A DNA stretch of 32,000 nucleotides, from contig NC_014824.1 in NCBI RefSeq assembly GCF_000179635.2, positions 300,001 through 332,000 of the forward strand, in the 5' to 3' direction. A program made the translations under genes and the position numbers. This DNA comes from Ruminococcus albus 7 = DSM 20455. Its GTDB lineage: Bacteria; Bacillota; Clostridia; Oscillospirales; Ruminococcaceae. The notes beneath the pieces were generated by a model, which saw nothing but the letters and a program-made list of their open reading frames with translations, was not told the DNA's origin and ran no database searches. This document shows positions 1 through 26,933 of this stretch, in pieces (position 1 is the first letter of the stretch; each line of letters opens with the position of its first letter).

Positions 1-1
1 T

Positions 2-4310: not shown

Positions 4311-4368
4311 GACTATAGAAAATCAATTTCATTGATCAGTAATACAGGGCGAATGATAAGCTCACGTT

Positions 4369-4507
4369 AAAATGCTGGGAGATTCGCACTTTATTTCGGG
4401 CGGCTCGGCGTCCGTAAATCGAGAAGTGCTCGTAAGTCTACAAATCTGTAGCCGAAGTAACTCTCGATAAGGTAAAAGCAATACACATTCAATCCGTGTA
4501 TTCAATT
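4369..4507 (+). ncRNA. structured scaffold RNA, copy A1 (tracrRNA/omega-RNA-like), directly upstream of CRISPR array 1
   Basis: Positions 4379-4526 differ from 13585-13732 by one nucleotide. Helices: GGGCG/CGTCC (4398-4413), ATCGAGA/TCTCGAT (4418-4424 with 4462-4468), CTACA/TGTAG (4438-4451), ATACAC/GTGTAT (4481-4501). The same architecture recurs with compensatory changes at 15853-15975. Confidence 0.6.
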
Positions 4508-4526
4508 TTATTTGTATAATTATGCA

Positions 4527-4824
4527 GATGCAATCTGTACAGGCAGGTAAATTGCGAGCAGCCATATCCTTTATCAGCCGTCCGCCGCATTCGGGGATGC
4601 AATCTGTACAGGCAGGTAAATTGCGAGGTGTAAAAGCCGTCAACATAAAAACCACTACTAGATGCAATCTGTACAGGCAGGTAAATTGCGAGAACAGACG
4701 TACAGTTTCAAGGGCGATTGAGATAGATGCAATCTGTACAGGCAGGTAAATTGCGAGAAGTCATTTGCAACAGAGATTTTATTAAAGTGGAGGATGCAAT
4801 CTGTACAGGCAAGTAAATTACAAA
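4527..4824 (+). CRISPR. mini-CRISPR array 1: 4 identical 32 nt repeats plus 1 degenerate terminal repeat, 4 spacers (37, 33, 33, 35 nt)
   Basis: Repeat GATGCAATCTGTACAGGCAGGTAAATTGCGAG at 4527, 4596, 4661 and 4726. Degenerate copy at 4793-4824. TTTGTATAAT promoter-like element at 4511-4520 immediately upstream. Confidence 0.9.
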
Positions 4825-4854
4825 AAACGAATTAAAAATTTTCCATCGAAAACC

Positions 4855-4883
4855 TTGACAGGGCCTACTTTATGATGTATAAT
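4855..4883 (+). promoter_or_regulatory. consensus sigma-70 promoter with no obvious ORF
   Basis: TTGACA, 17 nt spacer, TATAAT exactly. Followed by hairpin CTTGttaATAAGAAG...CGTCTTATctttCAAG (about 4907-4944) and a T-run near 4963-4972. Confidence 0.5.
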
Positions 4884-5010
4884 ATTATTAAAGTCAAATT
4901 AACTTGTTAATAAGAAGTACCGTTCGTCTTATCTTTCAAGTGTCATTTGGCTTTTATTTTTTTGCAATCTTTTCGGCTTCAGAAGTCTTCATATTATAAT
5001 AGTATCATAA

Positions 5011-5068
5011 CCAAGATCGTTTAACTGCCTGCAGCAATTGGAGCTGTAGAGACAAAAACAGATCTTGG
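5011..5068 (+). promoter_or_regulatory. conserved 5' leader hairpin (long-stem instance 3), followed by a T-run
   Basis: CCAAGATC...tTGGAGCTGTAGAGACAAaaaca...GATCTTGG then CTTTTTTT. TATAAT at 4994-4999. Confidence 0.5.
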
Positions 5069-5151
5069 CTTTTTTTATTGTAGTAAATTTTCTCCTATAA
5101 TAAAAATACAACATTCAAACAAATGGTAAGAAAAAGAAAGGAAATGTAAAG

Positions 5152-6264
5152 ATGAACAAATTCGGAAAGATCGTATCCTCGCTGACAGCACTGATGATAT
5201 TGGGGAGTACATTCACAGTAAATGCAGGCGCTGAAACTTTTTATACAAAAGGGGATATAAACAACAGCGGCACAGTAAATATTACGGATATCATTAAGAT
5301 AGCTTCTCATATAAAAAGCAAAAAAATGCTTAGTGAAGAGCGAAATGATATACTTGTACCGTATACAACACTCTGGGCTGCCGATGTCAACAGGGATGGA
5401 AAACTCAATATAACTGACATCACTACAATAGCGGCTCAAATAAAGAACGTAAAAAGTATTAGTAGCAGCACTAATGCATTTAAAAATGTAAGAAAACTAA
5501 CGACTCCTACCGAAACTGATATTATCGCTAGAGCACTCAGACTTACCGAAGCTAATCTCAAATACTACTCACCTAATGAGCCCAGAAAATATGATTTCAC
5601 AAAAGGAAACGACAAAGCTGAAAAAATCATCCTTAAAGAAGGAATAGACTGTTCGGGTATAATAAATTATGCTCTGGGTACACTTGGAATAGAAACAGAA
5701 GGTCTTCGTGGATCAAGCAACACTAATGCTGCACAATTTGGATATACTCCGGCAGCAACAGGTGACTGGCTCAATAAATATAACGTAATAAAGCCTGTAA
5801 AGAATGCTTATTGGATCGTTGACGGAACAAAGAAACCGATGAAAGTGCTGAAAAACGGTGTTTCTACCTCAAAACAGAAGTATTATCAGTACGGGAAGAA
5901 TAATGATATAATTCCTGTGGGTTCTATTGTCGTTGCCTTTGCTGAAGATAATAAAGGAAACCGCATGGCTAATGCAGATCATATGTGGCTGTATCTGGGC
6001 GAATACAACAATGCAAATGAAGTTAGAAAATACATAGCTTCACTGACAGATAAGGCTCCTGGGGATATTATGACCAGGATAGGCTCACAGAAGATAGGAT
6101 ATAATAGCAACAACAGCGATAATGACGGAAAACACTGGAGACTTGAAAGCACGGGTACTTGGCACGGTTTTGATAACTTCACCGGACCGCAGATAAATAA
6201 TGACCTTTGTAATAACACAAAAACACAGTATCTGATCTATGTTTTTGCCCCGCCCACTTTTTGA
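5152..6264 (+). CDS. secreted dockerin-containing NlpC/P60-family peptidase
   Basis: Signal peptide. Two dockerin repeats (GDINNSGTVNITDIIKIASHIK, ADVNRDGKLNITDITTIAAQIK). NlpC/P60-type GIDCSGIINYALG Cys motif and ADHMWLYLG His motif. Confidence 0.8.
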   Translation: MNKFGKIVSSLTALMILGSTFTVNAGAETFYTKGDINNSGTVNITDIIKIASHIKSKKMLSEERNDILVPYTTLWAADVNRDGKLNITDITTIAAQIKNVKSISSSTNAFKNVRKLTTPTETDIIARALRLTEANLKYYSPNEPRKYDFTKGNDKAEKIILKEGIDCSGIINYALGTLGIETEGLRGSSNTNAAQFGYTPAATGDWLNKYNVIKPVKNAYWIVDGTKKPMKVLKNGVSTSKQKYYQYGKNNDIIPVGSIVVAFAEDNKGNRMANADHMWLYLGEYNNANEVRKYIASLTDKAPGDIMTRIGSQKIGYNSNNSDNDGKHWRLESTGTWHGFDNFTGPQINNDLCNNTKTQYLIYVFAPPTF

Positions 6265-6276
6265 TAGCGTATAATT

Positions 6277-6294
6277 TGTGTCACGCGTGATACA
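6277..6294. repeat. palindrome family copy P1 (TGTGTCACGCGTGATACA)
   Basis: One mismatch to TGTGTCACGCGTGACACA. Lies 13 nt after the stop codon of 5152-6264. Confidence 0.8.
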
Positions 6295-6439
6295 AATAGA
6301 CCAACTAATAGAACAACTGAATGATAGCACTGGTTGGTGTATCATTTGTTCTATTGGTTGGTTTATTGTTTTTGTTTCATTTCTATGACGTATTATATCT
6401 TCTTGTATTTTCAAATATAATCTATTCAGGAATATTCAT

Positions 6440-7461
6440 CATGGTTATCCCTTTAACACACCACAGATAATTTACAATGCTGTCCAAATAAACAGACCTC
6501 AAAACTCAGAAAATATAGTATAATAGTGACAGAAACCGAAGGGAGCTGTCGCTATGTCAAAAAGATTTCCGAAACCTGAGATCACACTTGATGGGATATA
6601 CTCAAAGTTCGCAGATGAAAGCTTTTGCAAGGATTTTCTGCTTGATATCCGCTTTGAAAAGGGTTTTGCCTGCCCGTTTTGCGGTGGCTCTGAGTACCGC
6701 AGGATAAGGTCACGCCATCTGCTGCGATGCAAGTTCTGTAAAGCAGATATATCCGCCACAAACGGAACTTTTATGCACAGAACACATATTCCGCTCAGAC
6801 TGTGGATAGTCACCGCATTCCTCATTATGAGCAACAAATGCAGCGTTTCTGCTGTTACGCTGATGAGGTCTTTGGGGGTGACCTACAAGACTGCATGGTA
6901 CATCCTTCATCGCATCAGAAAAGCTATGAAATGCCGTGAAGAACGCTATTTGCTTGACGGGATCGTTGAACTTGATGACACGTATCTCGGTGCTCCGACT
7001 CACGGTAAAAAGCGTGGCAGAGGAACTGAAAAAGTCAAGATGATAGTAGCTTTGTCAAAGAACGCAGCAGGAAATCCCGAGTACGTTAAAATGAGCGATG
7101 TGCCGAATTTAAAGGGTATAACTGTTGGTAGATTTGCCAGGGATAATATCCGCGCAGGCTCGAAGATCGAGAGTGATAATGCTCGAAGTTACAAGAAACC
7201 GTTGGCACAGAAATACTTCCATGTTTTTGAAACATATGATCCGACAAGCGGTCAGCTGAACTGGATGCATAAAGTTATATCAAACTTCAAAGCAATGATC
7301 ATGGGAACTTACCACGGAAACGAAAAGATCCACACAGCGTTATATGCTGCCGAATACTGCTACAAATTCAACCGTCGTAAGCTGGGAAACAGTGCGTATT
7401 TAAGGCTTTTGGCTGCTTTGGTGCAGTGATCTTACTTGTGGTGTGTTAAAGGGATAACCAT
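6440..7461 (+). mobile_element. IS1595-family insertion sequence with target-site duplication
   Basis: 24 bp terminal inverted repeats ATGGTTATCCCTTTAACACACCAC (6441-6464; reverse complement at 7438-7461). Flanked by direct repeat AATATTCAT (6431-6439 and 7462-7470). Confidence 0.85.
6554..7429 (+). CDS. IS1595-family (ISXO2-like) DDE transposase
   Basis: N-terminal zinc-ribbon CPFCGG...CKFC, then IPLRLWIVTAFLIMSNK and VELDDTYLG, as in IS1595 transposases. Confidence 0.8.
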   Translation: MSKRFPKPEITLDGIYSKFADESFCKDFLLDIRFEKGFACPFCGGSEYRRIRSRHLLRCKFCKADISATNGTFMHRTHIPLRLWIVTAFLIMSNKCSVSAVTLMRSLGVTYKTAWYILHRIRKAMKCREERYLLDGIVELDDTYLGAPTHGKKRGRGTEKVKMIVALSKNAAGNPEYVKMSDVPNLKGITVGRFARDNIRAGSKIESDNARSYKKPLAQKYFHVFETYDPTSGQLNWMHKVISNFKAMIMGTYHGNEKIHTALYAAEYCYKFNRRKLGNSAYLRLLAALVQ

Positions 7462-7469
7462 AATATTCA

Positions 7470-7500
7470 TTGATAGCTTGGAGGTCAGACAAGTTGTTGA
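7470..7500 (+). promoter_or_regulatory. conserved 5' leader hairpin (instance 4)
   Basis: ttgatagctTGGAGGTCAGACaagttgttga. Its promoter (TATAAT 6414-6419) is displaced about 1 kb by the IS1595 insertion. Confidence 0.6.
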
Positions 7501-7550
7501 TAATACTTTCAAAATACATATCGAAGAAGATAAAAAGGAGCTTAAGAATT

Positions 7551-8138
7551 ATGAACGAAGTAAAAAACGAAATATCTGAATGGAAGGGATATTCTTTTGA
7601 ATTCAGAAATGACGCATATGAAGTCAAGGTACGTAATCTTGAAATCGAACAGGATGAATACACTGTTTTTCTTTATGCAGATGATATCAAAGTGGAGAGA
7701 AACGGCAGTGAGATGACAGAAAAAGATTTTGGAACGACGTGGTCGGGACGGAAAATGACAGAAAAAGATTTGCTGCAGCAGTCACTTGCTCTTTACGTCA
7801 ACGGTGTGAAAGATTTTTCTATGCATGAAAGTCTGGACGAATTGGATATCGTATATAATAAGCTACATGAAAAGGGAAGAATCAAAGATATTAATGAAGC
7901 TTATCTTACTCCGGATGGTCACATCTTGCATCTTCAGTTTGTAACTGAAAACAGTATCGGTTATGTAGGAGTTGATGATCTTTGTGTTGCCATTCGTGCA
8001 GATACAAAAGAGTCTATCACAGATATTGAATTCTTCTACGAACAATTGGTATACGACCTTGTGAAGGAAAATACAGCATTCATTTATCAGACCGAGGAGT
8101 TAAAGGAATGGATCAAAACTTTCGAAACGGAGGAATAA
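7551..8138 (+). CDS. hypothetical protein (195 aa)
   Basis: ATG at 7551 with RBS aaAAGGAGcttaagaattATG. The longer ORF-track start at 7470 runs through the leader motif. Confidence 0.65.
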   Translation: MNEVKNEISEWKGYSFEFRNDAYEVKVRNLEIEQDEYTVFLYADDIKVERNGSEMTEKDFGTTWSGRKMTEKDLLQQSLALYVNGVKDFSMHESLDELDIVYNKLHEKGRIKDINEAYLTPDGHILHLQFVTENSIGYVGVDDLCVAIRADTKESITDIEFFYEQLVYDLVKENTAFIYQTEELKEWIKTFETEE

Positions 8139-8140
8139 AC

Positions 8141-8509
8141 ATGGAAATCACCGAAGATAAAATAGTATATGGTAAAAATACCTTTACAATAGTAAATGAA
8201 GTTCCTGATGGATATAAAATATGGAATATAGGTCCTTATATGCTGAAAGGATTCATTCCGCTGTGCCGGCTAAAACAAGAACTTTTGCAAAAAGGACTAT
8301 ATGTAATAGAAAAAGATTGTCTATTAGCAATAAAGTCAGAAGGATCAGATAAGATAATGGCTGCGATAGGCGGAGGATATCATACGGTAGCTTTAATGGA
8401 AAAATTCTTGTCAGATAACCCAGAGCCGAAAAAAGATTCCTGGGAAGCTAAACAGGTATCACGGATAAATGCAGCATTGCCTTATATGAAAAAGATTAAA
8501 GGACTGTAA
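8141..8509 (+). CDS. hypothetical protein (122 aa)
   Basis: ATG at 8141 after acGGAGGAataaac; abuts the upstream stop codon. Confidence 0.65.
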   Translation: MEITEDKIVYGKNTFTIVNEVPDGYKIWNIGPYMLKGFIPLCRLKQELLQKGLYVIEKDCLLAIKSEGSDKIMAAIGGGYHTVALMEKFLSDNPEPKKDSWEAKQVSRINAALPYMKKIKGL

Positions 8510-8528
8510 GAATAACAAGGAGGAAAAA

Positions 8529-8801
8529 ATGTCGAAGATCTATAGAGTTCCCGTATATTATCAAGTGAGTGAATACGTTCCGGTGAAGGCTTTTTCTAAA
8601 GAAGAAGCAATAAAGTATGTAAGAGACCACCAGGACAAAATACCTACCCATTGCGGAGATGCCAATTATATCGATGAATCTTATGAGATAGAGTCTGATC
8701 CCGATGTTGTTTTGGGGTGTGATGAAAAATCAGGACTCTGGGAAAGGGAAGCATGGAACAATGAATATTATGATGCAACAAAGGAGAATAAAGATGGATA
8801 A
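8529..8801 (+). CDS. hypothetical protein (90 aa)
   Basis: RBS caAGGAGGaaaaaATG. Confidence 0.7.
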   Translation: MSKIYRVPVYYQVSEYVPVKAFSKEEAIKYVRDHQDKIPTHCGDANYIDESYEIESDPDVVLGCDEKSGLWEREAWNNEYYDATKENKDG

Positions 8802-11623: not shown

Positions 11624-11661
11624 AAGCATCTTCTGCGAAATATATCGCAGAGGATGTTTTT
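11624..11661 (+). terminator. intrinsic terminator
   Basis: AAGCATCTTCTGCGaaatatatCGCAGAGGATGTTTTT. Confidence 0.65.
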
Positions 11662-11662
11662 G

Positions 11663-11680
11663 TGTATCACGCGTGACACT
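11663..11680. repeat. palindrome family copy P2 (TGTATCACGCGTGACACT)
   Basis: Two mismatches to the consensus; directly after a terminator T-run. Confidence 0.7.
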
Positions 11681-12900: not shown

Positions 12901-13416
12901 ATGAGTTACCATGTTTGGTCTGTAGACGGATACGGTTTTGATGTTTCAAATACAATAAATAATCTTACACTTGAAAAATGGTCACTGTTAAAAGAGAATA
13001 TTCGGCTTTTCTGGGAAGAAAAAAAGCCTTACAGTGATGAAGATTATCCCGAAGCGAAAAATTTTTTTAATATTCCTGTTGATGTGAATGATATTAAGCA
13101 GGATATTCAAAACGCCAGAGAGCTGTTCAGTGAATACGAAAGTCCATTTTATTGTTTATATGGGTTTGATGATCTTGTCGCTGAAATTTTTGTATGGCTA
13201 TGGCAAAAGAATGGGCATATTGAAGATTTAGTGGAAATAGTTATTGATGAGTTTACTGATAGTCATACATACTGGCTTTTAGGTATGGTGTATCCATGGC
13301 GTAAAGTTGAAAAATTCGATTCTAAAGAAGACTGCCGAAATGCGATTATTAAATCAATGAAAGGATTTGTAGAGGCAGGGAATGTAAATTTTGAATCCAT
13401 TGAACAGGGAGGATGA
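12901..13416 (+). CDS. hypothetical protein (171 aa)
   Basis: ORF track; purine-rich stretch gacAGGGGaaattaattATG. Confidence 0.65.
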   Translation: MSYHVWSVDGYGFDVSNTINNLTLEKWSLLKENIRLFWEEKKPYSDEDYPEAKNFFNIPVDVNDIKQDIQNARELFSEYESPFYCLYGFDDLVAEIFVWLWQKNGHIEDLVEIVIDEFTDSHTYWLLGMVYPWRKVEKFDSKEDCRNAIIKSMKGFVEAGNVNFESIEQGG

Positions 13417-13443
13417 ATCCTTCCTGCCATGATCTGTCCTGTA

Positions 13444-13477
13444 AAACATCTCTCTTTTTTGGAGGGATGTTTTTTTA
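13444..13477 (+). terminator. intrinsic terminator, conserved family
   Basis: AAACATCTCTCttttttgGAGGGATGTTTTTTT. Confidence 0.75.
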
Positions 13478-13506
13478 TTCCTTTTTACTATTAGAAAATA
13501 TTTCAC

Positions 13507-13535
13507 TTGAATTATAGATGTATTTGTGTTATTAT
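13507..13535 (+). promoter_or_regulatory. sigma-70-type promoter upstream of scaffold RNA A2
   Basis: TTGAAT, 17 nt spacer, TATTAT. Confidence 0.45.
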
Positions 13536-13574
13536 AAATACAGGAAAACTCGTTGCGAATGGCAAGCTTACATA

Positions 13575-13713
13575 AAAATGCCAAGAGATTCGCACTTTAT
13601 TTCGGGCGGCTCGGCGTCCGTAAATCGAGAAGTGCTCGTAAGTCTACAAATCTGTAGCCGAAGTAACTCTCGATAAGGTAAAAACAATACACATTCAATC
13701 CGTGTATTCAATT
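13575..13713 (+). ncRNA. structured scaffold RNA, copy A2, directly upstream of CRISPR array 2
   Basis: Positions 13585-13732 equal 4379-4526 except A13684 versus G4478. Confidence 0.6.
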
Positions 13714-13732
13714 TTATTTGTATAATTATGCA

Positions 13733-13900
13733 GATGCAATCTGCACTACGCAAGTGAATTGCGAGTTCGGCGTTGCTGCTTGATGAATCGGGCACTATCG
13801 ATGCAATCTGCACTACGCAAGTGAATTGCGAGGTATATTAATTTGTACAAAAGCAGTCGAACACTTTGTTGCAATCTGTACTACGCAAGTGAATTGCGAG
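13733..13900 (+). CRISPR. mini-CRISPR array 2: 3 repeats of 33 nt, 2 spacers (34 and 35 nt)
   Basis: Repeat GATGCAATCTGCACTACGCAAGTGAATTGCGAG at 13733 and 13800. Variant with 2 substitutions at 13868. Confidence 0.8.
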
Positions 13901-13966
13901 TGATTATCTTCATACTTTTCCATTCAAAAATATGCTTACAAAAATGATCACAAAATAATCTTTATA

Positions 13967-13991
13967 GACAGCTTAACGCCCTAAAATCGAG
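13967..13991 (+). repeat. isolated copy of the scaffold 5' hairpin module (copy E)
   Basis: GACAGCTTAACGCCCTAAAATCGAG, compare GGGCGACTTAACGTCCTAAAATCGAG at 17469. Preceded by AAAATGATCACAAAATAATCT, which also occurs at 17568-17589. Confidence 0.45.
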
Positions 13992-14124
13992 AAAATATTT
14001 TGCAAATTTATCAACGAGATACTACTTCATTCGTATATGATTTCAAGTGTTTTGAATGTAACGATGGCGGTAAGTGTGAAATCTGTCGTATCAAGCGGTA
14101 AAATGAATATTAAAGGAGTGCGCT

Positions 14125-14745
14125 ATGGCTGTTAAAAAGAAACTCCCTGCCTTAAAAAGGCTCATCAAGAAAATCGAAAAGGTCACGCACGTCCGTCCCG
14201 CTACGGAAGAGGAGCTTGCGGCTTTACAGAAGCTTGCAGGCGGAAAGCTCCCCGAGGAGGCTATGGAATTTTACTCACATTACAGTTTTGAGGGTATTGT
14301 GCGCATTGATGAGTATATTGATCTCTACGGCATTAACGAAATAGTCAGATGGAATACAGACGCTGTACCCGGGTTTATGGTTCTGCCGTTCGGACTTCTG
14401 ACCGTGGCTTCATGGGTAGACGGTGATGCAATCTGCATTGACCTTAACAGCGTTGGTGAAAAGTTTGGGTATGGGGGATGTTACACCACGCAGGTGATTC
14501 GTCAGTGCAGTCATGAACTTTTCAGCGAGGGCGAGGAGATCACCTTCTACAGAAAAGCACTCGGCGGTTTGGTTCGCCTGCCTTATACCCGTGAGAATGT
14601 CGTTGCGCTTTCTCCTTATGTAACCAATGACTTCAGTTATCTTCTCAAACGCCTGAGAGATGGGGAGCTTCGTTATATCGAACTTACCAAAACATTGGAT
14701 GATTACGAGAAAAAACGATTGCAGGAAACTGCTCAGGAAAGTTAA
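14125..14745 (+). CDS. SMI1/KNR4 (SUKH-1)-like protein, putative immunity protein
   Basis: RBS tAAAGGAGtgcgctATG. The N-terminal LPEEAMEFYSHYSFEG region resembles the SMI1_KNR4 signature. The segment is visibly more GC-rich than its flanks. Confidence 0.5.
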   Translation: MAVKKKLPALKRLIKKIEKVTHVRPATEEELAALQKLAGGKLPEEAMEFYSHYSFEGIVRIDEYIDLYGINEIVRWNTDAVPGFMVLPFGLLTVASWVDGDAICIDLNSVGEKFGYGGCYTTQVIRQCSHELFSEGEEITFYRKALGGLVRLPYTRENVVALSPYVTNDFSYLLKRLRDGELRYIELTKTLDDYEKKRLQETAQES

Positions 14746-14752
14746 CATCACA

Positions 14753-14785
14753 AGCCGAATGTTCATCGAGAGCGTTCGGCTTTTG
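14753..14785 (+). terminator. intrinsic terminator
   Basis: AGCCGAAtgttcatcgagagcgTTCGGCT followed by TTT. Confidence 0.7.
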
Positions 14786-15081
14786 GGTAAAAGAACAAAT
14801 AGCTTTATAGCAAAGATATACGGCTGTTTAGATGAATCGTTAGATGCACATACCACAATGGCATACATTAACCGTAAGGCTCTCGGAAACGCTGTGAAAG
14901 CGTTCCTGAGGGCTTTTTGGCGTTGAAACAGACAAATATGGAAAAAGGTTGCGCAACTGATGCGTTATGCAACCTTAATTATGGGAGCGAAATCTTATAT
15001 ATGATTATTGGGCTTTTAACTGTGATATGAAGCTTTTTTATTATTGCAAATTTTCACGTAAAATAAAATTGTAGATGTTAA

Positions 15082-15113
15082 TTGATAACATAGGAGACCA
15101 GACAGATTATTGA
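15082..15113 (+). promoter_or_regulatory. conserved 5' leader hairpin (instance 6)
   Basis: ttgataacaTAGGAGACCAGACagattattga. The stem changes G to A, converting a G-U wobble pair to A-U, so pairing is kept. Confidence 0.55.
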
Positions 15114-15156
15114 TAAATATTCTCAAATAACTATAAAACCAAAAGGAGTAATTGCT

Positions 15157-15414
15157 ATGAAAGGAATAATGCCGGATCATAAAGAATGGAGAAAGAAAAG
15201 ATACAAGATATTCAATGAAAAAATAAACTATTTTAAAGATCATCCCAAATATGAATGGCTGAGGAAATATGCAGATGATGCAATGAACGCAAATGAAGGG
15301 TTTGGTTATCTGATGATAAAAGGAGCAGACTTTATAGAAAGAATTGAAAAAATGCCTCTTGAATATATCAGAGACTGGCTCAACGGAAAAAATAAACTGG
15401 AATGGACAACATAA
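15157..15414 (+). CDS. hypothetical protein (85 aa)
   Basis: RBS aaAAGGAGtaattgctATG. Confidence 0.7.
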   Translation: MKGIMPDHKEWRKKRYKIFNEKINYFKDHPKYEWLRKYADDAMNANEGFGYLMIKGADFIERIEKMPLEYIRDWLNGKNKLEWTT

Positions 15415-15452
15415 AACAGCAAGCAAGAAAAATAACCGATAATTTGTCTTTT

Positions 15453-15482
15453 AAACGTTCCTCACACGAGGGGCGTTTTTTT
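15453..15482 (+). terminator. intrinsic terminator, conserved family
   Basis: AAACGTTCCTCacacGAGGGGCGTTTTTTT. Confidence 0.75.
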
Positions 15483-15591
15483 CATCATACAAGAATAGAA
15501 GATGTTGACTACAATTTGTTTTTTTGATATAATAATCAAGGAAATATTAAAAAGGAAAAATTATCTTCTGTTATAATAGTATAAAACTTGT

Positions 15592-15609
15592 TGTGTCACG
15601 CGGGACACA
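15592..15609. repeat. palindrome family copy P3 (TGTGTCACGCGGGACACA)
   Basis: One mismatch to the consensus. Confidence 0.75.
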
Positions 15610-15697
15610 AATAAAATGTTCCCTATAAAAACCTTTTTTGCAGGGACGTTTTCATCGATAAAGATTTTCTTCTATAATTATCTTAGATCTAAAAATT

Positions 15698-15728
15698 TTG
15701 ATAATCGGAGTCGGAATCAACAGATCAG
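15698..15728 (+). promoter_or_regulatory. leader hairpin instance 7, heading a decapitated cassette
   Basis: ttgataatCGGAGTCggaatcaACAGAtcag after TATAAT (15673-15678). Followed by AAAGGAG RBS and ATG CAC TAT TAA (15753-15764). Confidence 0.5.
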
Positions 15729-15852
15729 TTTACAGTAAAGGAGAAAATTGAAATGCACTATTAATCATCAAAAGAAATCCCGAACTATATAAAATTTTTC
15801 TCAAAAAGAATAACAGCAACAATAAATAACACTGTGATATTCATATTATCCA

Positions 15853-15975
15853 GGGCGGCTTAACGCCCTTAAATCGAAACAATGCGTCGTAAACCGCTAT
15901 ACAGCGTTGATCGTATACTCGATAAGGTAATATCTCAGCAATGAGATCAAAATTATACGCATAAAATCCGCGTAG
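15853..15975 (+). ncRNA. structured scaffold RNA, copy C, upstream of the Cas12f/TnpB-like gene
   Basis: Same helix order as A1/A2 with compensatory changes: GGGCG/CGCCC (15853-15868), ATCGA/TCGAT (15873-77 with 15919-23), CGCT/AGCG (15895-15906), TACGC/GCGTA (15956-15974) with conserved loop A-AATCC. It has one extra hairpin, ATCTCA/TGAGAT (15932-15947). Confidence 0.55.
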
Positions 15976-16072
15976 ACAGTGAACATAACTATATAAGAAT
16001 GTGAGCTGTAAGTTATATAATGATATTGGAGTATTGATGTGTCCTTCAAAAAAATCTTAAGGAGTAATAAAA

Positions 16073-17434
16073 ATGACTAAAGTAGTAAAATTAGCGTTAA
16101 TAAGCAATGTAACCGATAAAGATGGAAACAAAGTTGAATACAATGAATTAAACAGATGCCTATGGGATCTTCAAAAAGAAACCAGGGACCTGAAAAATGC
16201 TGTAGTAAGAGAATGCTGGGAATGGTACGGATTCACCAACGATTATTATAAACTTAACGAAGAATATCCGAATGAAAGAGATTATCTGAAAAAGGCAAAG
16301 TCTGACGGAACGATTAAAGATTATGCTTTGGATGGATTTATATATGCTAAATACAGCAAAAAATACAATCTTCATTCAGGAAACTATTCACAAACATTAA
16401 GAGACGCCTGCGGAAGCTTTAAAAATAATCTCAAAGAAATATTAAGAGGAGATAAGAGCATTTTAAGTTATAGAGCCGATCAGCCTCTGGATATCAAGAA
16501 GACCTGTATCGGACTGGAATACGATAAGGACACAAACACTTATTATGTAACTCTTGTTCTGCTAAACAAAAATGGCGTCAAGCATTATAATATCAGTGAT
16601 TTCAGATTTAAGATAACCGTAAAGGATAATTCAACAAGAACGATCCTTGAACGTTGTTTTGATGGAGTATACGGCATAAGCGCAAGTAAGCTTATCTGGA
16701 ACAGAAAGAAGAGTCAGTGGTTTTTAAATCTCTGCTATTCATTCGATAAAGTAGAGGTAAAGGAACTTGACAAGAAAAAGATACTGGGAGTAAATCTCGG
16801 TGTTTACTACCCTTTATACGCTTCAATATCCGGAGAAAAGGATAGACTAGCGATCTCTGGTGATGAAATAATCGAATTCAGGAAACGAATAGAGGCTAGA
16901 AGGACAGCTCTGAAGAAACAGGCTGCTGTGTGCGGAGATGGAAGGATAGGTCATGGTTATAAAACCAGGATGAAACCATTACAGAATGTCTCTGATAAGA
17001 TAGCAAATTTCAGAGATACCTTTAATCACAAAGCAAGTAAAAAGCTAATTGATTTTGCAATCAAAAATGATTGTGGGATCATCCAGCTCGAAAATCTTAA
17101 AGGAGTAACAAAAAATTCAGAAGGATTCCTCAAAAACTGGTCTTTTTATGATCTTCAGAGTAAGATCGAAAATAAGGCGAAAGAAAGAGGGATAAAAGTT
17201 GTTTATATTGAACCTGCTTACACAAGCCTGAGATGCTCAAAATGCGGATGTATACACAAAGATAATCATCCGACCAGAGAGCAGTTTATCTGTCAAGAGT
17301 GTGGGTATAGGGTTCTGCATGATTACAATGCCAGCCAGAACATTGCTGTCAAGGATATAGACAAGATAATAAAAGCTGAACTTGAAAAGACGGAACCGGA
17401 AAAGAAAACAGAGGAAGAAAAGCCCGAGAAGTAA
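16073..17434 (+). CDS. miniature Cas12f/TnpB-like RuvC protein (453 aa) with Asn at the RuvC-I catalytic position
   Basis: RBS tAAGGAGtaataaaaATG. RuvC-I context KKILGVNLGVYYP (N241, AAT 16793-16795, where the family has GxDxG). RuvC-II IIQLENLKG (E340). Zinc finger CSKCG...CQECG. RuvC-III HDYNASQNIA (D417). GDGRIGHGYKTRMKPL resembles the Gly/Arg/Lys-rich linker I recall from Cas12f. Confidence 0.8.
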   Translation: MTKVVKLALISNVTDKDGNKVEYNELNRCLWDLQKETRDLKNAVVRECWEWYGFTNDYYKLNEEYPNERDYLKKAKSDGTIKDYALDGFIYAKYSKKYNLHSGNYSQTLRDACGSFKNNLKEILRGDKSILSYRADQPLDIKKTCIGLEYDKDTNTYYVTLVLLNKNGVKHYNISDFRFKITVKDNSTRTILERCFDGVYGISASKLIWNRKKSQWFLNLCYSFDKVEVKELDKKKILGVNLGVYYPLYASISGEKDRLAISGDEIIEFRKRIEARRTALKKQAAVCGDGRIGHGYKTRMKPLQNVSDKIANFRDTFNHKASKKLIDFAIKNDCGIIQLENLKGVTKNSEGFLKNWSFYDLQSKIENKAKERGIKVVYIEPAYTSLRCSKCGCIHKDNHPTREQFICQECGYRVLHDYNASQNIAVKDIDKIIKAELEKTEPEKKTEEEKPEK

Positions 17435-17468
17435 GTTCATGTAAAATAATGTGATGATAATATTTTTA

Positions 17469-17589
17469 GGGCGACTTAACGTCCTAAAATCGAGGCGATT
17501 AATCCTGATTGCTGACTAAAGGCTGGCAGGCAATAAAGCTGCGTTATCCGTTGTATGCAGAAGAATAAAAACGATCACAAAATTAATCT
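17469..17589 (+). ncRNA. partial or diverged scaffold copy D plus repeat-like remnant, 3' of the effector gene
   Basis: GGGCGacttaaCGTCCTAAAATCGAGG starts 35 nt after the stop codon, preceded by TGATGATAAT (-10-like). Contains GGCAGGCAATAAAGCTGCG, which resembles repeat 1 (GGCAGGTAAATTGCGAG). Ends with AAAACGATCACAAAATTAATCT, shared with the trailer of array 2. Confidence 0.4.
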
Positions 17590-17597
17590 GAGAAAAA

Positions 17598-17626
17598 GGC
17601 TTTGTTTTAGTGACAGAGCCTTTTTT
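17598..17626 (+). terminator. intrinsic terminator
   Basis: GGCTTTGttttagtgaCAGAGCC followed by TTTTTT. Confidence 0.7.
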
Positions 17627-17641
17627 GGCAGCTGTATGTTT

Positions 17642-17659
17642 TGTGTCACGCGTGACACA
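17642..17659. repeat. palindrome family copy P4 (perfect TGTGTCACGCGTGACACA)
   Basis: Perfect 18 bp palindrome, 20 bp with the flanking T/A. Lies 33 nt upstream of TATAAT 17692-17697. Confidence 0.85.
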
Positions 17660-17713
17660 AGCGAAAGATATTATCGATTTCACTTTTCTTGTATAATAAC
17701 AACATAGATGTTA

Positions 17714-19310: not shown

Positions 19311-19315
19311 ATGTT

Positions 19316-19333
19316 TGTGTCACACGTGACACA
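19316..19333. repeat. palindrome family copy P5 (TGTGTCACACGTGACACA)
   Basis: One central substitution; directly after the terminator. Confidence 0.8.
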
Positions 19334-21831: not shown

Positions 21832-23157
21832 TTATGCTGTTTGAGCGATAAATTCCGCATTCAGGTTAACTAAGGTAGAGAACGTGCAGGTGCTTCTCTT
21901 ACTGCATTGAGGTACTTTAGCCTCAATGAGCAACCTTGAATTCTCATCCAAGGATTTTAATATTTCACGTATGAAGTATCTTGCCCCTATATTATACGAA
22001 GCAGATAGATCGCAGTTGTAGGTCTTGCCATTTTGAAATTTGCATAGCTCATAGGTATTGAAACCACCGAATTTACCACGAAGTACAAAACCACTGCCAT
22101 CGTATGCAAGGCGTGACGTATTCCATGCACAGATATGGCTTACTCTCATACCTAGTCTGTGAGCTTTATTCGTTACAATAGACTGAACTTCCTGACTGCG
22201 CCACAGCTTGAGCTTCTGCTTTTTAGAACCGCGGACCTTACCGTTCTTGTCTAAATGCTCAAATACAATAACATCTGCATTATAAAGAACGGCTATATCT
22301 ACGATGCAGGCAGCAGTTTTAGTGGCAATGTCGTGATTGATTCCTTTGGCTTTTGCCCAAAGCCTTGGTGTTTTATAGTTACCATGCTGCTGAGCTTTTT
22401 TTATACGGTTAATGCTATGCATCAGATGGTCTGTTTCTTTGGTAAGCTTACAAAAATGCCTTCCAAGAATAGTGCCATCTGAACGCATTACGGAAACCGT
22501 AGCTGCGGTGTTGATCCCAAGGTCTACAGCAACAATGGTCTGCTCATACACAGATATATCTGCCAGTTTGACCTTTTCCTCAAACGGAAAGTCCAAAAAC
22601 CACTTCTTGCCTCGTTTTTGAAGTGTTGGAGCGCATTCCTTGCGAAACCTGCAATATCTGTATATATAATCCATATCAGACTTTTTAAGGTTTATAGTTA
22701 TCCAGTCCCATGTATTACGGATATAGACTTTGATCTGGGCAGTATAATCACCGGTCTGATTGTACATTACTGTACGATACATAGACGGGAATGAATAACC
22801 TGCTTTTGGATACGATGGTTCTCTGCCTACAGAATCTTTGATCCAGTTATCGAAATTGCTTTTGTAAGATGATACCTTGCCTATAGCCTCGTTAATAGCA
22901 CCACGGCGCAGATAGCTTGGCATCTTATAGAATTTGGCATCAAAATCATAAATTGGATCGGGATTATCTTTTGTAGCATGGATCAGTGTTTCAATATATG
23001 TGAGTCTACTCACCCCTTTGAATGTAACAATGTTATCCCAATGATCCAGACAAACGCTGATAAGGTAATCTACAGCATGTCTGTATTCGATAACGGTATC
23101 TTTGAAAATGTTGTTGTAATGCTTGATCTTAACGCTGTATGTCGTATATATCTGCAT
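21832..23157 (-). CDS. tnpB: TnpB-like RNA-guided endonuclease (441 aa), RuvC triad intact
   Basis: RBS AAGGAGGG upstream. RuvC-I IVAVDLGINTAA, RuvC-II VIVFEHLD, RuvC-III YNCDLSASYNIGARY. AWNTSRLAYDGSG replaces the usual CxxC zinc finger. Confidence 0.8.
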   Translation of the reverse strand: MQIYTTYSVKIKHYNNIFKDTVIEYRHAVDYLISVCLDHWDNIVTFKGVSRLTYIETLIHATKDNPDPIYDFDAKFYKMPSYLRRGAINEAIGKVSSYKSNFDNWIKDSVGREPSYPKAGYSFPSMYRTVMYNQTGDYTAQIKVYIRNTWDWITINLKKSDMDYIYRYCRFRKECAPTLQKRGKKWFLDFPFEEKVKLADISVYEQTIVAVDLGINTAATVSVMRSDGTILGRHFCKLTKETDHLMHSINRIKKAQQHGNYKTPRLWAKAKGINHDIATKTAACIVDIAVLYNADVIVFEHLDKNGKVRGSKKQKLKLWRSQEVQSIVTNKAHRLGMRVSHICAWNTSRLAYDGSGFVLRGKFGGFNTYELCKFQNGKTYNCDLSASYNIGARYFIREILKSLDENSRLLIEAKVPQCSKRSTCTFSTLVNLNAEFIAQTA

Positions 23158-23332
23158 ACTGCAGACTCCCTCCTTATACTTGTTTTTTTGAGAATTAATG
23201 TAATCTGTTACATGTTTATGTTTAAGACTTCTGTCGCTTACAGTTGCTACAAAATACGATGGATTCCATATATATTATAGCAGATTTATTTAAGAATAAA
23301 AAATTATATATACTTAAAAGTTGTTCTGTGTT

Positions 23333-23350
23333 TGTGTCACGCGTGACACA
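23333..23350. repeat. palindrome family copy P6 (perfect; part of a ~33 bp extended palindrome) inside the TnpB element
   Basis: TTCTGTgTTTGTGTCACGCGTGACACAAACAGAA. Confidence 0.85.
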
Positions 23351-26915: not shown

Positions 26916-26933
26916 TGATTCACGCGTGATAAA
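26916..26933. repeat. palindrome family copy P7 (degenerate, TGATTCACGCGTGATAAA)
   Basis: Core TCACGCGTGA is intact; the outer positions have diverged symmetrically. Confidence 0.55.

What the first reader, a model, noticed from the sequence alone, without database searches (positions are those of the whole stretch)
15853..15975. A structured RNA family (three full copies, two 5'-hairpin-only copies) with compensatory base changes
Copy C (15853-15975) and copies A1 (4398-4501) and A2 (13604-13707) share the same helix order, although they are clearly diverged from each other in primary sequence.
- Helix 1: GGGCG/CGTCC in A versus GGGCG/CGCCC in C.
- Long-range helix: ATCGAGA...TCTCGAT versus ATCGA...TCGAT, followed in both by AAGGTAA.
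- Internal hairpin: CTACA/TGTAG versus CGCT/AGCG.
- 3' hairpin: ATACAC/GTGTAT versus TACGC/GCGTA, with a conserved loop (A-T/A-AATCC).

The G-U pairs form only on the + strand. Two more copies (17469 and 13967) contain only the first hairpin plus TAAAATCGAG.

This covariation is what a functional tracrRNA or omega-RNA-like scaffold would show. Copy C sits about 100 nt upstream of the effector gene. That position is unusual, because TnpB omega-RNAs normally overlap the 3' end of the gene.
Basis: seen in the sequence. Interest (0 to 1): 0.8.

Follow-up and report, generated by a model that had tools for sequence, protein, structure and literature searches.

The report
Cas12f tracrRNA copies beside mini CRISPR arrays
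The repeated structured RNA is real and is the tracrRNA (the helper RNA that pairs with CRISPR guide RNAs) of a miniature Cas12f CRISPR system already known from AsCas12f; what is unusual is that it occurs in several copies, each with its own small array, next to an effector that lacks a catalytic residue.

Summary
A covariance model built from the copies finds about 95 homologues with E below 1e-6 in 91 related loci, and every match with E at or below 0.01 lies on the effector-gene strand. Most start 30-100 nt after the gene's stop, and about 70% are followed by a CRISPR array. 97% of cells pair, and 15 of 19 pairs show compensatory changes.

The model also hits the published AsCas12f1 sgRNA scaffold. 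The 453-aa protein matches AsCas12f at E 2e-95. The element is therefore a type V-F1 (former V-U3) Cas12f tracrRNA.

- A1 and A2 each sit directly upstream of a CRISPR array.
- The loop of hairpin 1 is complementary to the last 4 nt of the neighbouring repeat in 45 of 47 loci, with ten different complementary pairs. This is the R:AR-2 pseudoknot.
- An anti-repeat tail follows the 3' hairpin.

Copy C is a second tracrRNA type fused to a collapsed solo repeat. The canonical copy 3' of the gene is truncated.

The effector has Asn at the RuvC-I catalytic Asp, conserved across its clade. Loci with such substitutions tend to carry several tracrRNA-array modules.

The RNA is a known kind; the system is a possible new variant.

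The parts
4349..4387 (+). Copy A1: clade-specific 5' stem (GCGAAT...ATTCGC) upstream of the tracrRNA core
   Evidence: Sequence checked. The same stem, with covarying arms (GCGAAC/GTTCGC, GCGAGT/ATTCGC), lies just before the element in L006, L009, L011, L012, L018, L022, L023, L025, L036 and L039, where it spans or follows the gene's stop codon. Its fold is weak on its own (z = -1.9).
4397..4501 (+). Copy A1: tracrRNA core, made of hairpin 1 (loop GCTCGG), the CGAG/CUCG long-range helix with its internal hairpin, AAGGTAA, and the 3' hairpin with the AATCC loop
   Evidence: R1 scores it at 102 bits. MFE fold z = -3.6. Coordinates checked.
4502..4526 (+). Copy A1: anti-repeat tail (TCAATTTTATTTGTATAATTATGCA)
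   Evidence: At family level, a tail pairs better with its own repeat than with foreign repeats (-17.1 versus -12.2 kcal/mol, median rank 0.08). In this window the pairing is only AU-rich and interrupted (-8.4 kcal/mol, z = -0.7). CAAUUU:AAAUUG and UGUAUA:UGUACA were read by eye.
4527..4824 (+). CRISPR array 1: five 32-nt repeats (GATGCAATCTGTACAGGCAGGTAAATTGCGAG, the last one degenerate) and four spacers of 33-37 nt
   Evidence: Orthologous arrays in sibling strains (L091, L093) carry different spacers. The repeat ends in CGAG, which is complementary to CUCG in the A1 hairpin-1 loop.
13555..13593 (+). Copy A2: 5' stem
   Evidence: Part of the 192-nt duplication that is 95% identical to A1.
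13603..13707 (+). Copy A2: tracrRNA core
   Evidence: R1 scores it at 103 bits. MFE fold z = -3.8.
13708..13732 (+). Copy A2: anti-repeat tail
   Evidence: Identical to the A1 tail.
13733..13900 (+). CRISPR array 2: three 33-nt repeats (GATGCAATCTGCACTACGCAAGTGAATTGCGAG) and two spacers
13967..13991 (+). Degenerate remnant of a C-type copy (GACAGCTTAACGCCCTAAAATCGAG); its 5' arm is mutated
   Evidence: R1 scores it at only 13.8 bits, E 0.1. Sequence.
15853..15974 (+). Copy C: tracrRNA core of a second type, with hairpin-1 loop GCTTAA and an extra hairpin (15932-15947) that corresponds to stem 3 of AsCas12f
   Evidence: R1 scores it at 84 bits. MFE fold z = -2.7. Full-length orthologues in L047, L086, L087 and L089.
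15975..16012 (+). Copy C tail: collapsed anti-repeat fused to a degenerate, 5'-truncated solo repeat that ends in CTGTAAG
   Evidence: Compared by eye with the intact tail plus repeat in L047 and in L086 downstream, and with the same fusion in L086 upstream. TAAG is complementary to the CUUA loop of copy C. ACAG (15976-15979) and CTGT (16006-16009) can still pair.
16013..16045 (+). Sequence in the guide position after the solo repeat; it runs into the leader and RBS of the effector gene
   Evidence: Position only. No second match in the window (where the guide coordinates were offset by 6 nt). No match in the phage or plasmid collections.
16073..17434 (+). Effector gene: a 453-aa Cas12f1-type protein (AsCas12f-like) with Asn241 (codon AAT, 16793-16795) in place of the RuvC-I catalytic Asp
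   Evidence: NCBIfam guided_TnpB 225 bits. phmmer against PDB: AsCas12f 8J12/7WJU/8DZJ at E 2e-95. N241 aligns with As D225.
17469..17494 (+). Truncated remnant of the canonical 3' tracrRNA copy: hairpin 1 plus TAAAATCGAG only
   Evidence: R1 scores it at 25.5 bits, E 2e-4. The same position holds full copies in L086 (1946-2078) and L047 (511-641). It is also truncated in sibling contig L087.

Best explanation
The element is the tracrRNA of a miniature type V-F1 (former V-U3) CRISPR-Cas12f system of the AsCas12f clade, in a Ruminococcus albus-like genome.

Modules A1 and A2. Each consists of a clade-specific 5' stem, the conserved tracrRNA core, a short AU-rich anti-repeat tail, and a small CRISPR array that starts directly after the tail. 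The inferred mechanism is as follows. The tracrRNA pairs with each repeat of the array transcript in two places: its 3' tail pairs with the 5' and middle part of the repeat (R:AR-1), and the loop of hairpin 1 (CUCG) pairs with the last four repeat bases (CGAG), forming a pseudoknot (R:AR-2). The 453-aa Cas12f-type protein binds the resulting RNA, and the 3' spacer guides it to DNA.

Copy C. This is a second tracrRNA type (loop CUUA; an extra stem 3) that belongs to the effector's own lineage. Its anti-repeat has collapsed onto a degenerate solo repeat ending in UAAG, so it forms a fused, single-guide-like unit directly upstream of the gene. It may be decaying.

Truncated copies. The segments at 17469 and 13967 are truncated remnants.

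What is shown and what is inferred. Shown here: the conserved structure, the covariation, the loop-repeat and tail-repeat co-variation, and the homology to the validated AsCas12f1 scaffold. Inferred: transcription, processing and protein binding. The effector carries Asn at the RuvC-I catalytic Asp, so the complex may bind its targets without cutting them or with weak cutting. That too is an inference.
For: 1. Family. R1 gives 110 matches with E <= 1 in 86 sources. Every match with E <= 0.01 is on the effector-gene strand, and most start 30-100 nt after the stop codon.
2. Structure. 97.2% of cells pair, 15 of 19 pairs have changes on both sides (346 cells), 0 of 500 shuffles reach the observed value, and slid controls are at 48% or less. 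RNAalifold recovers the same three helices.
3. Arrays. 67 of 93 matches are followed within 120 nt by an array of at least two repeats; the automated count includes a few misdetections.
4. R:AR-2. In 45 of 47 loci the hairpin-1 loop forms at least 4 Watson-Crick pairs with the last 6 nt of its own repeat, against 11.1 +/- 2.7 (maximum 24) in 5000 permutations. Ten different complementary tetranucleotide pairs occur. In the window, A1/A2 have CUCG:CGAG and C has CUUA:UAAG.
5. R:AR-1. Duplex energy of a tail with its own repeat is -17.1 kcal/mol versus -12.2 with foreign repeats, median rank 0.08.
6. Link to a validated RNA. R1 hits L049 (Sulfoacidibacillus thermotolerans) at 61 bits. The L049 sequence matches, by eye, the tracrRNA part and the repeat of the AsCas12f1 sgRNA scaffold printed in bioRxiv 10.1101/2022.10.20.513037. 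Residue numbers in the structure preprint bioRxiv 10.1101/2023.07.03.547593 fit that sequence: G74-U75-A76 of AAGGUA form base triples with the 3'-hairpin loop, and R:AR-2 stacks coaxially on stem 1.
7. Effector. Matches AsCas12f at E 2e-95. Karvelis et al. 2020 (PMC7229846) tested type V-U3 Cas12f loci, including one from Ruminococcus sp., with the tracrRNA region lying between gene and array.
8. Strand. 59 of 92 sequences have G-U at one hairpin-1 pair, and the folds are significant only on the + strand.
9. Live arrays. Sibling strains carry different spacers in the orthologue of array 1.
Against: - There are no expression data, so transcription, ends and processing are inferred. The promoter scans are inconclusive.
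- The anti-repeat tails of A1 and A2 pair only weakly with their repeats (-8 kcal/mol, z = -0.2 to -0.7).
- A1 and A2 lie 2.2 and 11.5 kb from the only Cas12f gene in the window. They belong to a tracrRNA type found next to effectors that are only about 54% identical to this one (L009, L011, L012), so it is not shown that this effector uses them.
- Copy C looks partly degenerate. It has an A-C mismatch in stem 2, an A-G mismatch in the 3' hairpin and a collapsed anti-repeat. Compared with a sibling contig, it has 6 substitutions in 133 nt against 6 in 1362 nt of the ORF.
- Asn241 may make the effector inactive as a nuclease.
- No protospacer was found for any window spacer.
- Several repeat ends used were curated by hand.
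- Alignment A3 was fitted to the model's structure, which favours that structure.
Confidence: 0.88

Rival explanations
1. The copies are omega-RNAs of an IS200/IS605-type TnpB transposon. On this view hairpin 1 plus TAAATCGAG marks a transposon end, and the guide is whatever DNA flanks it.
For: - The protein scores as guided_TnpB (225 bits).
- In relatives the element begins at or just after the 3' end of the gene, as omega-RNAs do.
- Hairpin copies flank both the gene (15853 and 17469) and the A2 module (13604 and 13967).
- Both truncated copies end at the same point, after CGAG.
Against: - The element is followed by CRISPR arrays with variable spacers in about 70% of family members, and spacers turn over between strains.
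- The hairpin-1 loop and the tail co-vary with the repeat, which is dual-RNA behaviour.
- No Y1 or serine TnpA was found among the window ORFs scanned.
- The best structural relatives are CRISPR Cas12f proteins, not TnpB.
- In the full copies the scaffold continues after CGAG, so that point is not an end.
Confidence: 0.04
2. The window copies are non-functional relics. A1 and A2 are a recent DNA duplication, and C and the two short copies are decaying pseudogenes of a system that is being lost. On this view the similarity within the window reflects shared descent and not current function.
For: - A1 and A2 are 95% identical over 192 nt.
- The canonical 3' copy is truncated, both here and in sibling contigs.
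- C has mismatches in two helices and a collapsed repeat.
- C evolves about 10 times faster than the ORF. In sibling contig L087 it carries AAGGTA to AAGATA and a broken stem 3.
- The effector has lost a catalytic Asp.
Against: - The effector ORF is intact. Its 6 differences from the sibling contig leave the look-up of encoding contigs protein identical, although tblastn reports 99.6% identity for the same contigs.
- Asn241 is conserved across a clade down to 64% identity, which is not expected of a dying gene.
- The A1 array has different spacers in sibling strains, so it is dynamic.
- A1 in the sibling strains keeps its pairs through an A-U to G-U change.
- The fused C module predates the split from L086 (84% protein identity) and keeps its loop-repeat complementarity in both lineages.
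Confidence: 0.2
3. Copy C, with its solo repeat and the following about 20 nt, is a natural single-guide RNA with a regulatory role, for example control of the effector's own expression. This would be analogous to the long-form tracrRNA of Cas9 or to Cas-regulating CRISPR-like RNAs, which I cite from my own knowledge and did not look up here.
For: - The fusion removes only the distal R:AR-1 duplex. The AsCas12f structure preprint says that region can be truncated without loss of activity.
- The proximal ACAG/CUGU pairing and the CUUA:UAAG loop-repeat pairing are retained in both the window and L086.
- The module sits directly upstream of the effector's RBS in both lineages.
- A nuclease-impaired effector would suit a repressor role.
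Against: - The guide-position sequence is not conserved between the window and L086.
- No partial target was found elsewhere in the 32-kb window (guide coordinates offset by 6 nt there).
- C shows an elevated substitution rate.
- There are no expression data.
Confidence: 0.15

Closest known systems
AsCas12f1 tracrRNA / sgRNA scaffold (type V-F1, formerly V-U3; Acidibacillus/Sulfoacidibacillus)
   Same: - Same order of elements: stem 1 hairpin; stem 2 closed by (G/A)(C/U)CGAG...CUCG(G/A)U; UAAGGUA; a 3' hairpin whose loop ends in A(A/G)(U/A)CC; then the anti-repeat.
- The stem-1 loop pairs with the 3' end of the repeat (GUUCA:UGAAC in As, CUCG:CGAG and CUUA:UAAG here).
- Model R1, built only from the window, L001 and L003, hits the As-type locus at 61 bits.
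- The effector matches AsCas12f at E 2e-95.
   Different: - The A-type copies lack stem 3 and have an extra 5' stem.
- R:AR-1 is short, AU-rich and interrupted, whereas in As it is about 20 bp.
- The array starts directly after the tail, whereas in the As-type locus L049 it starts about 150 nt further on.
- There are several tracrRNA copies, each with its own mini-array or solo repeat.
- The effector has Asn at the residue that aligns with As D225.
TnpB omega-RNA (reRNA) of IS200/IS605 elements such as ISDra2
   Same: - The scaffold is encoded at or after the 3' end of the nuclease gene, on the same strand, with the guide at the 3' side.
- The protein family is shared (NCBIfam guided_TnpB).
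   Different: - Here the RNA is split into a tracrRNA and repeat-spacer units.
- Arrays with turnover are present.
- No transposase or transposon ends were found.
TranC (transposon-CRISPR intermediate, LaTranC)
   Same: A small TnpB-like effector associated with CRISPR arrays and an omega-RNA-derived tracrRNA. This description of the concept is from my own knowledge.
   Different: Sequence similarity to the LaTranC chains 9JFO and 9JFQ is marginal (E 1e-4 to 2e-4, covering only the C-terminal RuvC/zinc-finger region). AsCas12f matches over the full length.
Natural nuclease-dead Cas12f (dCas12f-sigmaE and CRISPR-linked dCas12f of Bacteroidota; Hoffmann et al., Nature 2026, PMC13472631) and TldR repressors
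   Same: Cas12f/TnpB relatives with RuvC substitutions that are thought to bind DNA without cutting it. One reported cluster lies near CRISPR arrays.
   Different: - Those proteins have C-terminal truncations, use single guide RNAs with no tracrRNA detected, and are found in Bacteroidota.
- The proteins here are full length and AsCas12f-like, come from Clostridia, carry point substitutions, and keep the tracrRNA and arrays.
- No sigma-factor gene was seen among the window ORFs scanned.

Membership tests
Type V-F1 (V-U3) Cas12f tracrRNA, AsCas12f clade | Sequence-and-structure homology to an experimentally used Cas12f1 tracrRNA | tested here: met
   R1 hits L049 4116-4236 at 61 bits, E 2e-11. 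That sequence and its repeat match, by eye, the published AsCas12f1 sgRNA scaffold.
Type V-F1 (V-U3) Cas12f tracrRNA, AsCas12f clade | Conserved secondary structure supported by compensatory changes | tested here: met
   97.2% of cells paired, 15 of 19 pairs with double changes, 0 of 500 shuffles, slid controls at 48% or less. RNAalifold gives the same helices.
Type V-F1 (V-U3) Cas12f tracrRNA, AsCas12f clade | Encoded next to a cas12f gene and/or a CRISPR array, on the same strand | tested here: met
   A1 and A2 lie directly upstream of arrays. C lies 98 nt upstream of the gene. 67 of 93 family members are followed by an array, and all lie on the gene strand.
Type V-F1 (V-U3) Cas12f tracrRNA, AsCas12f clade | Anti-repeat complementary to the CRISPR repeat (R:AR-1) | tested here: inconclusive
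   Met at family level (own repeat -17.1 versus foreign -12.2 kcal/mol, median rank 0.08). For window copies A1 and A2 the pairing is weak (-7.7 and -8.4 kcal/mol, z = -0.2 and -0.7). In C the anti-repeat has collapsed.
Type V-F1 (V-U3) Cas12f tracrRNA, AsCas12f clade | Second contact (R:AR-2) between the tracrRNA and the 3' end of the repeat | tested here: met
   The hairpin-1 loop is complementary to the last 4 nt of its own repeat in 45 of 47 loci, against 11.1 +/- 2.7 when permuted, with ten pair types. In the window: CUCG:CGAG for A1/A2 and CUUA:UAAG for C.
Type V-F1 (V-U3) Cas12f tracrRNA, AsCas12f clade | Transcribed, processed and bound by the effector | not testable with these tools
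   No RNA-seq or RIP data are available. The promoter scans are not decisive.
Cas12f1 effector (nuclease) | Full-length similarity to solved Cas12f1 proteins, including the zinc-finger cysteines | tested here: met
   AsCas12f at E 2e-95 over residues 21-435. Four cysteines conserved.
Cas12f1 effector (nuclease) | Intact RuvC D-E-D catalytic triad | tested here: not met
   The RuvC-I Asp is Asn241 (codon AAT). E340 and D417 are kept. Asn is shared by all 12 clade members down to 64% identity.
TnpB omega-RNA of an IS200/IS605 or IS607 element | Single scaffold ending at a transposon end, with a flank-derived guide and an element bounded by LE/RE (often with tnpA) | tested here: not met
   The element is followed by repeat-spacer arrays. 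No tnpA was found among the window ORFs scanned. The IS200_TnpB and IS607_TnpB models score far below their cut-offs.
Any Rfam family | Match to a curated covariance model | tested here: not met
   No match at gathering threshold in the whole window, and none at E <= 1 in 13400-17700.

The most novel reading that the evidence does not exclude
The window may belong to an undescribed variant of type V-F1. In this reading, AsCas12f-like effectors have repeatedly lost RuvC catalytic residues: Asn in this clade, and F/E/F, T/E/H or H/E/N triads in others. They nevertheless keep an intact ORF, a tracrRNA and CRISPR arrays that turn over, and they multiply 'tracrRNA + mini-array' modules around the locus. 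Such systems would act by RNA-guided binding (silencing of phages, other mobile elements or host genes) rather than by cutting. Fused tracrRNA-repeat units like copy C would then be natural single-guide RNAs.
Probability: 0.3. Interest if true: 0.7.

Novelty: new variant of a known kind. Interest (0 to 1): 0.5.

Why it matters
The RNA itself is a new orthologue of a known and biotechnologically important class, the Cas12f1 tracrRNA. No Rfam model exists for it. The 93-sequence alignment and the rule that the hairpin-1 loop matches the repeat end could be used to annotate tracrRNAs and to design sgRNAs for many uncharacterised miniature Cas12f orthologues.

The wider interest lies in the context. 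An AsCas12f-like clade has a conserved Asn at a catalytic Asp. RuvC substitutions are associated with several tracrRNA-array modules per locus. A tracrRNA-repeat fusion occurs naturally here. If these effectors are binding-only, they would be natural CRISPRi-type systems that still use a tracrRNA and adaptive arrays. They would also be compact, ready-made dCas12f scaffolds.

Tried and rejected
- Phage origin. The repeated promoters and terminators suggested a phage window. There was no DNA match in the phage collection and no relative of the effector in IMG/VR. The genes are dockerin, LRR, SUKH and DUF4241 types typical of Ruminococcus, and a Ruminococcus albus 8 contig encodes a 90%-identical C-terminus.
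- Transposon omega-RNA. Rejected because of the arrays and the loop-repeat covariation.
- TranC membership. Rejected because LaTranC matches only at E 1e-4.
- Rfam. Nothing at the gathering or E-value thresholds.
- Pairing of the repeat end with the CUCG strand of stem 2. Considered by eye and dropped, because it does not co-vary, unlike the hairpin-1 loop.
- Protospacers of the window spacers. None in phages or plasmids, and none for three spacers in IMG/VR.
- Self-targets of the spacers and of the copy-C guide within the window. None with 5 or fewer mismatches in 20 nt that looked meaningful (the copy-C guide coordinates were offset by 6 nt there).
- Promoter and terminator scans around the three copies. 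Not above shuffled expectation in a useful way. A TTGCAT/TTGAAT-17-TATAAT/TATTAT pair about 60 nt upstream of the 5' stem of A1 and A2 is only a suggestion.
- Search for an A-type effector next to A1 in sibling strains. The three metagenome contigs with the A1 26-mer are syntenic with the window and carry no cas12f.
Full report
**1. The observation**

I read them and verified every coordinate.

- Hairpin 1 is GGGCG-loop-CGTCC in A1 (4398-4413) and A2 (13604-13619), and GGGCG-loop-CGCCC in C (15853-15868).
- The long-range helix is ATCGAGA/TCTCGAT in A and ATCGA/TCGAT in C, followed by AAGGTA.
- The internal hairpins are CTACA/TGTAG and CGCT/AGCG.
- The 3' hairpins are ATACAC/GTGTAT and TACGC/GCGTA, around a loop that ends in AATCC.

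Single-sequence MFE folds reproduce all of these on the + strand (z = -3.6, -3.8, -2.7) and not on the - strand (z = -1.1, -1.3).

Some corrections are needed.
- A1 and A2 are 95% identical over 192 nt, so they count as one observation.
- The helix-1 difference between A and C is one-sided (G-U to G-C).
- The short copy at 13967 has a mutated 5' arm (GACAG) and scores only 13.8 bits.
- The short copy at 17469 is supported (25.5 bits, E 2e-4).

**2. What surrounds the copies**

A1 and A2 each sit directly upstream of a CRISPR array.
- Array 1 (4527-4824) has five 32-nt repeats, GATGCAATCTGTACAGGCAGGTAAATTGCGAG. The last repeat is degenerate, which places the leader on the A1 side.
- Array 2 (13733-13900) has three 33-nt repeats.

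The 453-aa ORF at 16073-17434 belongs to the TnpB/Cas12 superfamily (NCBIfam guided_TnpB, 225 bits). Its best solved relatives are AsCas12f (8J12, 7WJU, 8DZJ; E 2e-95 over residues 21-435) and another 433-aa Cas12f (9NZQ). LaTranC matches only at E 1e-4.

The window is not a phage. The phage collection and IMG/VR gave nothing. The genes encode dockerin, LRR, SUKH and DUF4241 proteins. A Ruminococcus albus 8 contig encodes a 90%-identical C-terminus.

**3. Related loci and covariation**

Homologues of the protein are abundant. I fetched loci for the closest ones and 80 loci from reference genomes.

In L003 (68% protein identity) the same element occurs four times, each followed by an array. In L001 it occurs six times.

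A covariance model built from eight copies found 110 matches with E <= 1 in 86 sources. Every match with E <= 0.01 lies on the strand of the effector gene, and most begin 30-100 nt after its stop codon.

On the 93 matches with E < 1e-6:
- 97.2% of cells form standard pairs.
- 15 of 19 pairs show changes on both sides (346 cells).
- None of 500 shuffles reaches the observed values.
- Sliding the 3' partners drops pairing to 48% or less.
- RNAalifold recovers the same three helices.

One hairpin-1 pair is G-U in 59 of 92 sequences, which fixes the strand. The alignment was fitted to the model, and that favours the structure. Even so, the gap from the slid and shuffled controls is large.

**4. 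Why it is a tracrRNA**

(a) Arrays. 67 of 93 matches are followed within 120 nt by an array of at least two repeats. The automated count includes a few misdetections, and several of the remaining matches have a solo repeat or hit a contig end.

(b) Anti-repeat. The tail after the 3' hairpin pairs better with its own repeat than with repeats of other loci (-17.1 versus -12.2 kcal/mol, median rank 0.08).

(c) Loop-repeat pairing. This is the most telling result. The loop of hairpin 1 is complementary to the last four bases of the neighbouring repeat. 45 of 47 loci have at least 4 Watson-Crick pairs, against 11.1 +/- 2.7 (maximum 24) in 5000 permutations. Ten different complementary pairs occur: CUCG:CGAG, CUUA:UAAG, CUUC:GAAG, CUUU:AAAG, CUUG:CAAG, CUCU:AGAG, UUUC:GAAA, CUCA:UGAG, CUCC:GGAG and GUUC:GAAC. 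Some repeat ends were curated by hand.

(d) Link to a validated RNA. The model hits L049 from Sulfoacidibacillus thermotolerans at 61 bits. By eye, L049 from about 4117 to 4255 plus its repeat matches the tracrRNA part and the repeat of the AsCas12f1 sgRNA scaffold printed in bioRxiv 10.1101/2022.10.20.513037.

The residue numbers in the AsCas12f1 structure preprint (bioRxiv 10.1101/2023.07.03.547593) fit that sequence.
- G27-G32 and C63-C67 form stem 2.
- G74-U75-A76 of AAGGUA form base triples and a quadruple with the loop of the following hairpin.
- R:AR-2 stacks coaxially on stem 1.

Karvelis et al. 2020 (PMC7229846) characterised these type V-U3 loci, now called Cas12f1, including one from Ruminococcus sp. 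In those loci the putative tracrRNA lies between the gene and the array.

**5. Anatomy in this window**

- A conserved 5' stem (GCGAAT...ATTCGC; 4349-4387 and 13555-13593) precedes the core. In relatives it spans or follows the stop codon and shows covarying arms.
- A 25-nt AU-rich tail (4502-4526, 13708-13732) follows the core. Its complementarity to the repeat is weak here (about -8 kcal/mol).

Copy C is a different tracrRNA type.
- Its loop is GCUUAA.
- It has an extra hairpin (15932-15947) that corresponds to stem 3 of AsCas12f.
- It has no 5' stem.

This C type belongs to the effector's own lineage. In R. albus 8 (L047), and downstream of the gene in L086 (84% protein identity), a full C-type copy follows the gene and precedes repeats ending in CUGUAAG.

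In the window that 3' copy is cut after TAAAATCGAG (17469-17494). The same is true in sibling contig L087, which differs there by a 128-nt indel flanked by GCGATT.

Copy C is orthologous to the upstream copy of L086. In both, the anti-repeat has been deleted, so the core runs straight into a 5'-truncated repeat (window ...GAGCTGTAAG, ending at 16012). The CUUA:UAAG pairing and a proximal ACAG/CUGT pairing are kept. This looks like a natural single-guide arrangement.

However, C also carries an A-C and an A-G mismatch. Compared with L087 it has 6 substitutions in 133 nt, against 6 in 1362 nt of the ORF and 9 in 768 nt upstream. It may therefore be decaying.

**6. How it most likely works**

Shown here: the conserved structure, the strand, the adjacency to arrays, two co-varying contacts with the repeat, and homology to the AsCas12f scaffold.

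Inferred: each module is transcribed. The tracrRNA pairs with the repeats through R:AR-1 and R:AR-2. The duplex is processed and bound by the Cas12f-type protein (a dimer in AsCas12f). The 3' spacer then directs the complex to DNA next to a 5' PAM.

Arrays are live. Three metagenome contigs from the same species, syntenic with window 1-8800, carry entirely different spacers in the orthologue of array 1.

It is not shown that the window's effector uses the A-type modules. Their closest tracrRNA relatives accompany effectors only about 54% identical to this one (L009, L011, L012). The AsCas12f structure preprint reports that stems 1 and 3 and R:AR-1 barely touch the protein, so cross-use is plausible.

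**7. An unexpected feature of the effector**

The residue aligned with the RuvC-I catalytic Asp (As D225, in GIDLGV) is Asn241 (GVNLGV, codon AAT). E340 and D417 are kept.

Among 120 cluster representatives, 15 carry Asn at this position. Twelve of them form the window's clade (64-100% identity, also marked by LHDYNASQN), and three arose separately.

In the reference-genome loci, other lineages have lost two of the three catalytic residues (F/E/F, T/E/H, H/E/N). They still keep an intact ORF, the zinc-finger cysteines, a strong R1 match and, where detected, arrays.

Loci with a non-Asp residue hold two or more elements in 10 of 17 cases, against 1 of 64 Asp-type loci (Fisher p = 1e-7). This test is not corrected for phylogeny or contig length. 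Weak double hits in three Bacillus Asp-type loci soften it.

One spacer of an Asn-type locus (L010) matches a human-gut phage 33 of 33 nt, with ATTC on the 5' side. At least that system has therefore sampled phage DNA.

Natural dCas12f proteins are known (PMC13472631). They are C-terminally truncated Bacteroidota proteins for which no tracrRNA was detected. Whether Asn241 abolishes cleavage is not known.

**8. Comparison and novelty**

The RNA is a new orthologue of a known class, the Cas12f1 tracrRNA. Rfam has no model for it.

As a system, the locus differs from the described V-F1 loci in four ways:
- several tracrRNA copies of two types;
- orphan tracrRNA-array modules kilobases from the gene;
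- a fused tracrRNA-repeat unit upstream of the gene;
- a conserved catalytic-site substitution.

I therefore rate it a new variant of a known kind.

Noticed in passing
window 16793-16795 (codon 241 of the 453-aa ORF): The RuvC-I catalytic Asp is replaced by Asn (GVNLGV, where AsCas12f has GIDLGV). E340 and D417 are kept. The substitution is shared by the whole close clade (64-100% identity), and it arose separately in three other cluster representatives.
   Followed up: yes
loci L001, L003, L010, L026, L031, L058, L063, L081, L086 and the window: Loci whose effector lacks the RuvC-I Asp (N, F, T or H; some have also lost the RuvC-III Asp) tend to carry 2-6 tracrRNA elements. This holds for 10 of 17 such loci, against 1 of 64 Asp-type loci. 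The test is not phylogenetically corrected.
   Followed up: partly
window 15975-16012; L086 417-444: In the module upstream of the gene the anti-repeat has been deleted, so the tracrRNA core is fused to a 5'-truncated repeat. This natural single-guide-like arrangement is shared by two lineages whose proteins are 84% identical.
   Followed up: partly
L091 3590-3720 (- strand) and L093 7600-7760, compared with window 4527-4824: Contigs from the same species (93-97% identical flanks) carry entirely different spacers in the orthologue of array 1. Spacers therefore turn over, although no cas1/cas2 is present in the window.
   Followed up: partly
L010 10584-10616; phage MT835532.1 30565-30597: A spacer of an Asn-type locus matches a human-gut phage contig 33 of 33 nt. 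The 5' flank of the protospacer is ATTC, which is a possible PAM.
   Followed up: partly
window 17494/17495; L087 2424-2553: A sibling contig has 128 extra bases, flanked by direct GCGATT repeats, immediately after the truncated 3' tracrRNA copy. This is either a deletion in the window or an insertion in the sibling.
   Followed up: no
window 6274-6293, 11660-11679, 15589-15608, 17639-17658, 19313-19332, 23330-23349, 26913-26932: Seven copies of an 18-20-nt palindrome (TGTGTCACGCGTGACACA) lie in intergenic regions, often just upstream of promoter-like TTTTCTTATATAAT boxes. It could be an operator for an unknown regulator.
   Followed up: no
window 2237-30986 (repeat families D1, D5 and D6): The window holds many near-identical promoter-like boxes (TTTTC-N-TATAATA) and terminator hairpins (AAACGTCTCTC...GAGGGGCGTTTTT). 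The region looks built from similar small expression cassettes encoding dockerin, LRR, SUKH, DUF4241 and DUF4314 proteins.
   Followed up: no
window 21832-23157 (- strand): A second, divergent TnpB-like ORF of 441 aa (guided_TnpB 67 bits, below the cut-off). No R1-type element is near it.
   Followed up: partly
window 6554-7429: An IS1595-family (ISXO2-like DDE) transposase gene lies between the A1 and A2 modules.
   Followed up: no
L003 5147-5184 and 9880-9917: The same spacer (GCGCTGTGAGGAGTGTTGTTATACTCCTTTATGA) occurs in two different arrays of one locus. This shows that whole tracrRNA-array modules are duplicated.
   Followed up: no
L001 11861-12883: A second, 5'-truncated cas12f-like ORF of the Asp type lies directly downstream of the Asn-type gene, with tracrRNA elements of two types interleaved.
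   Followed up: no
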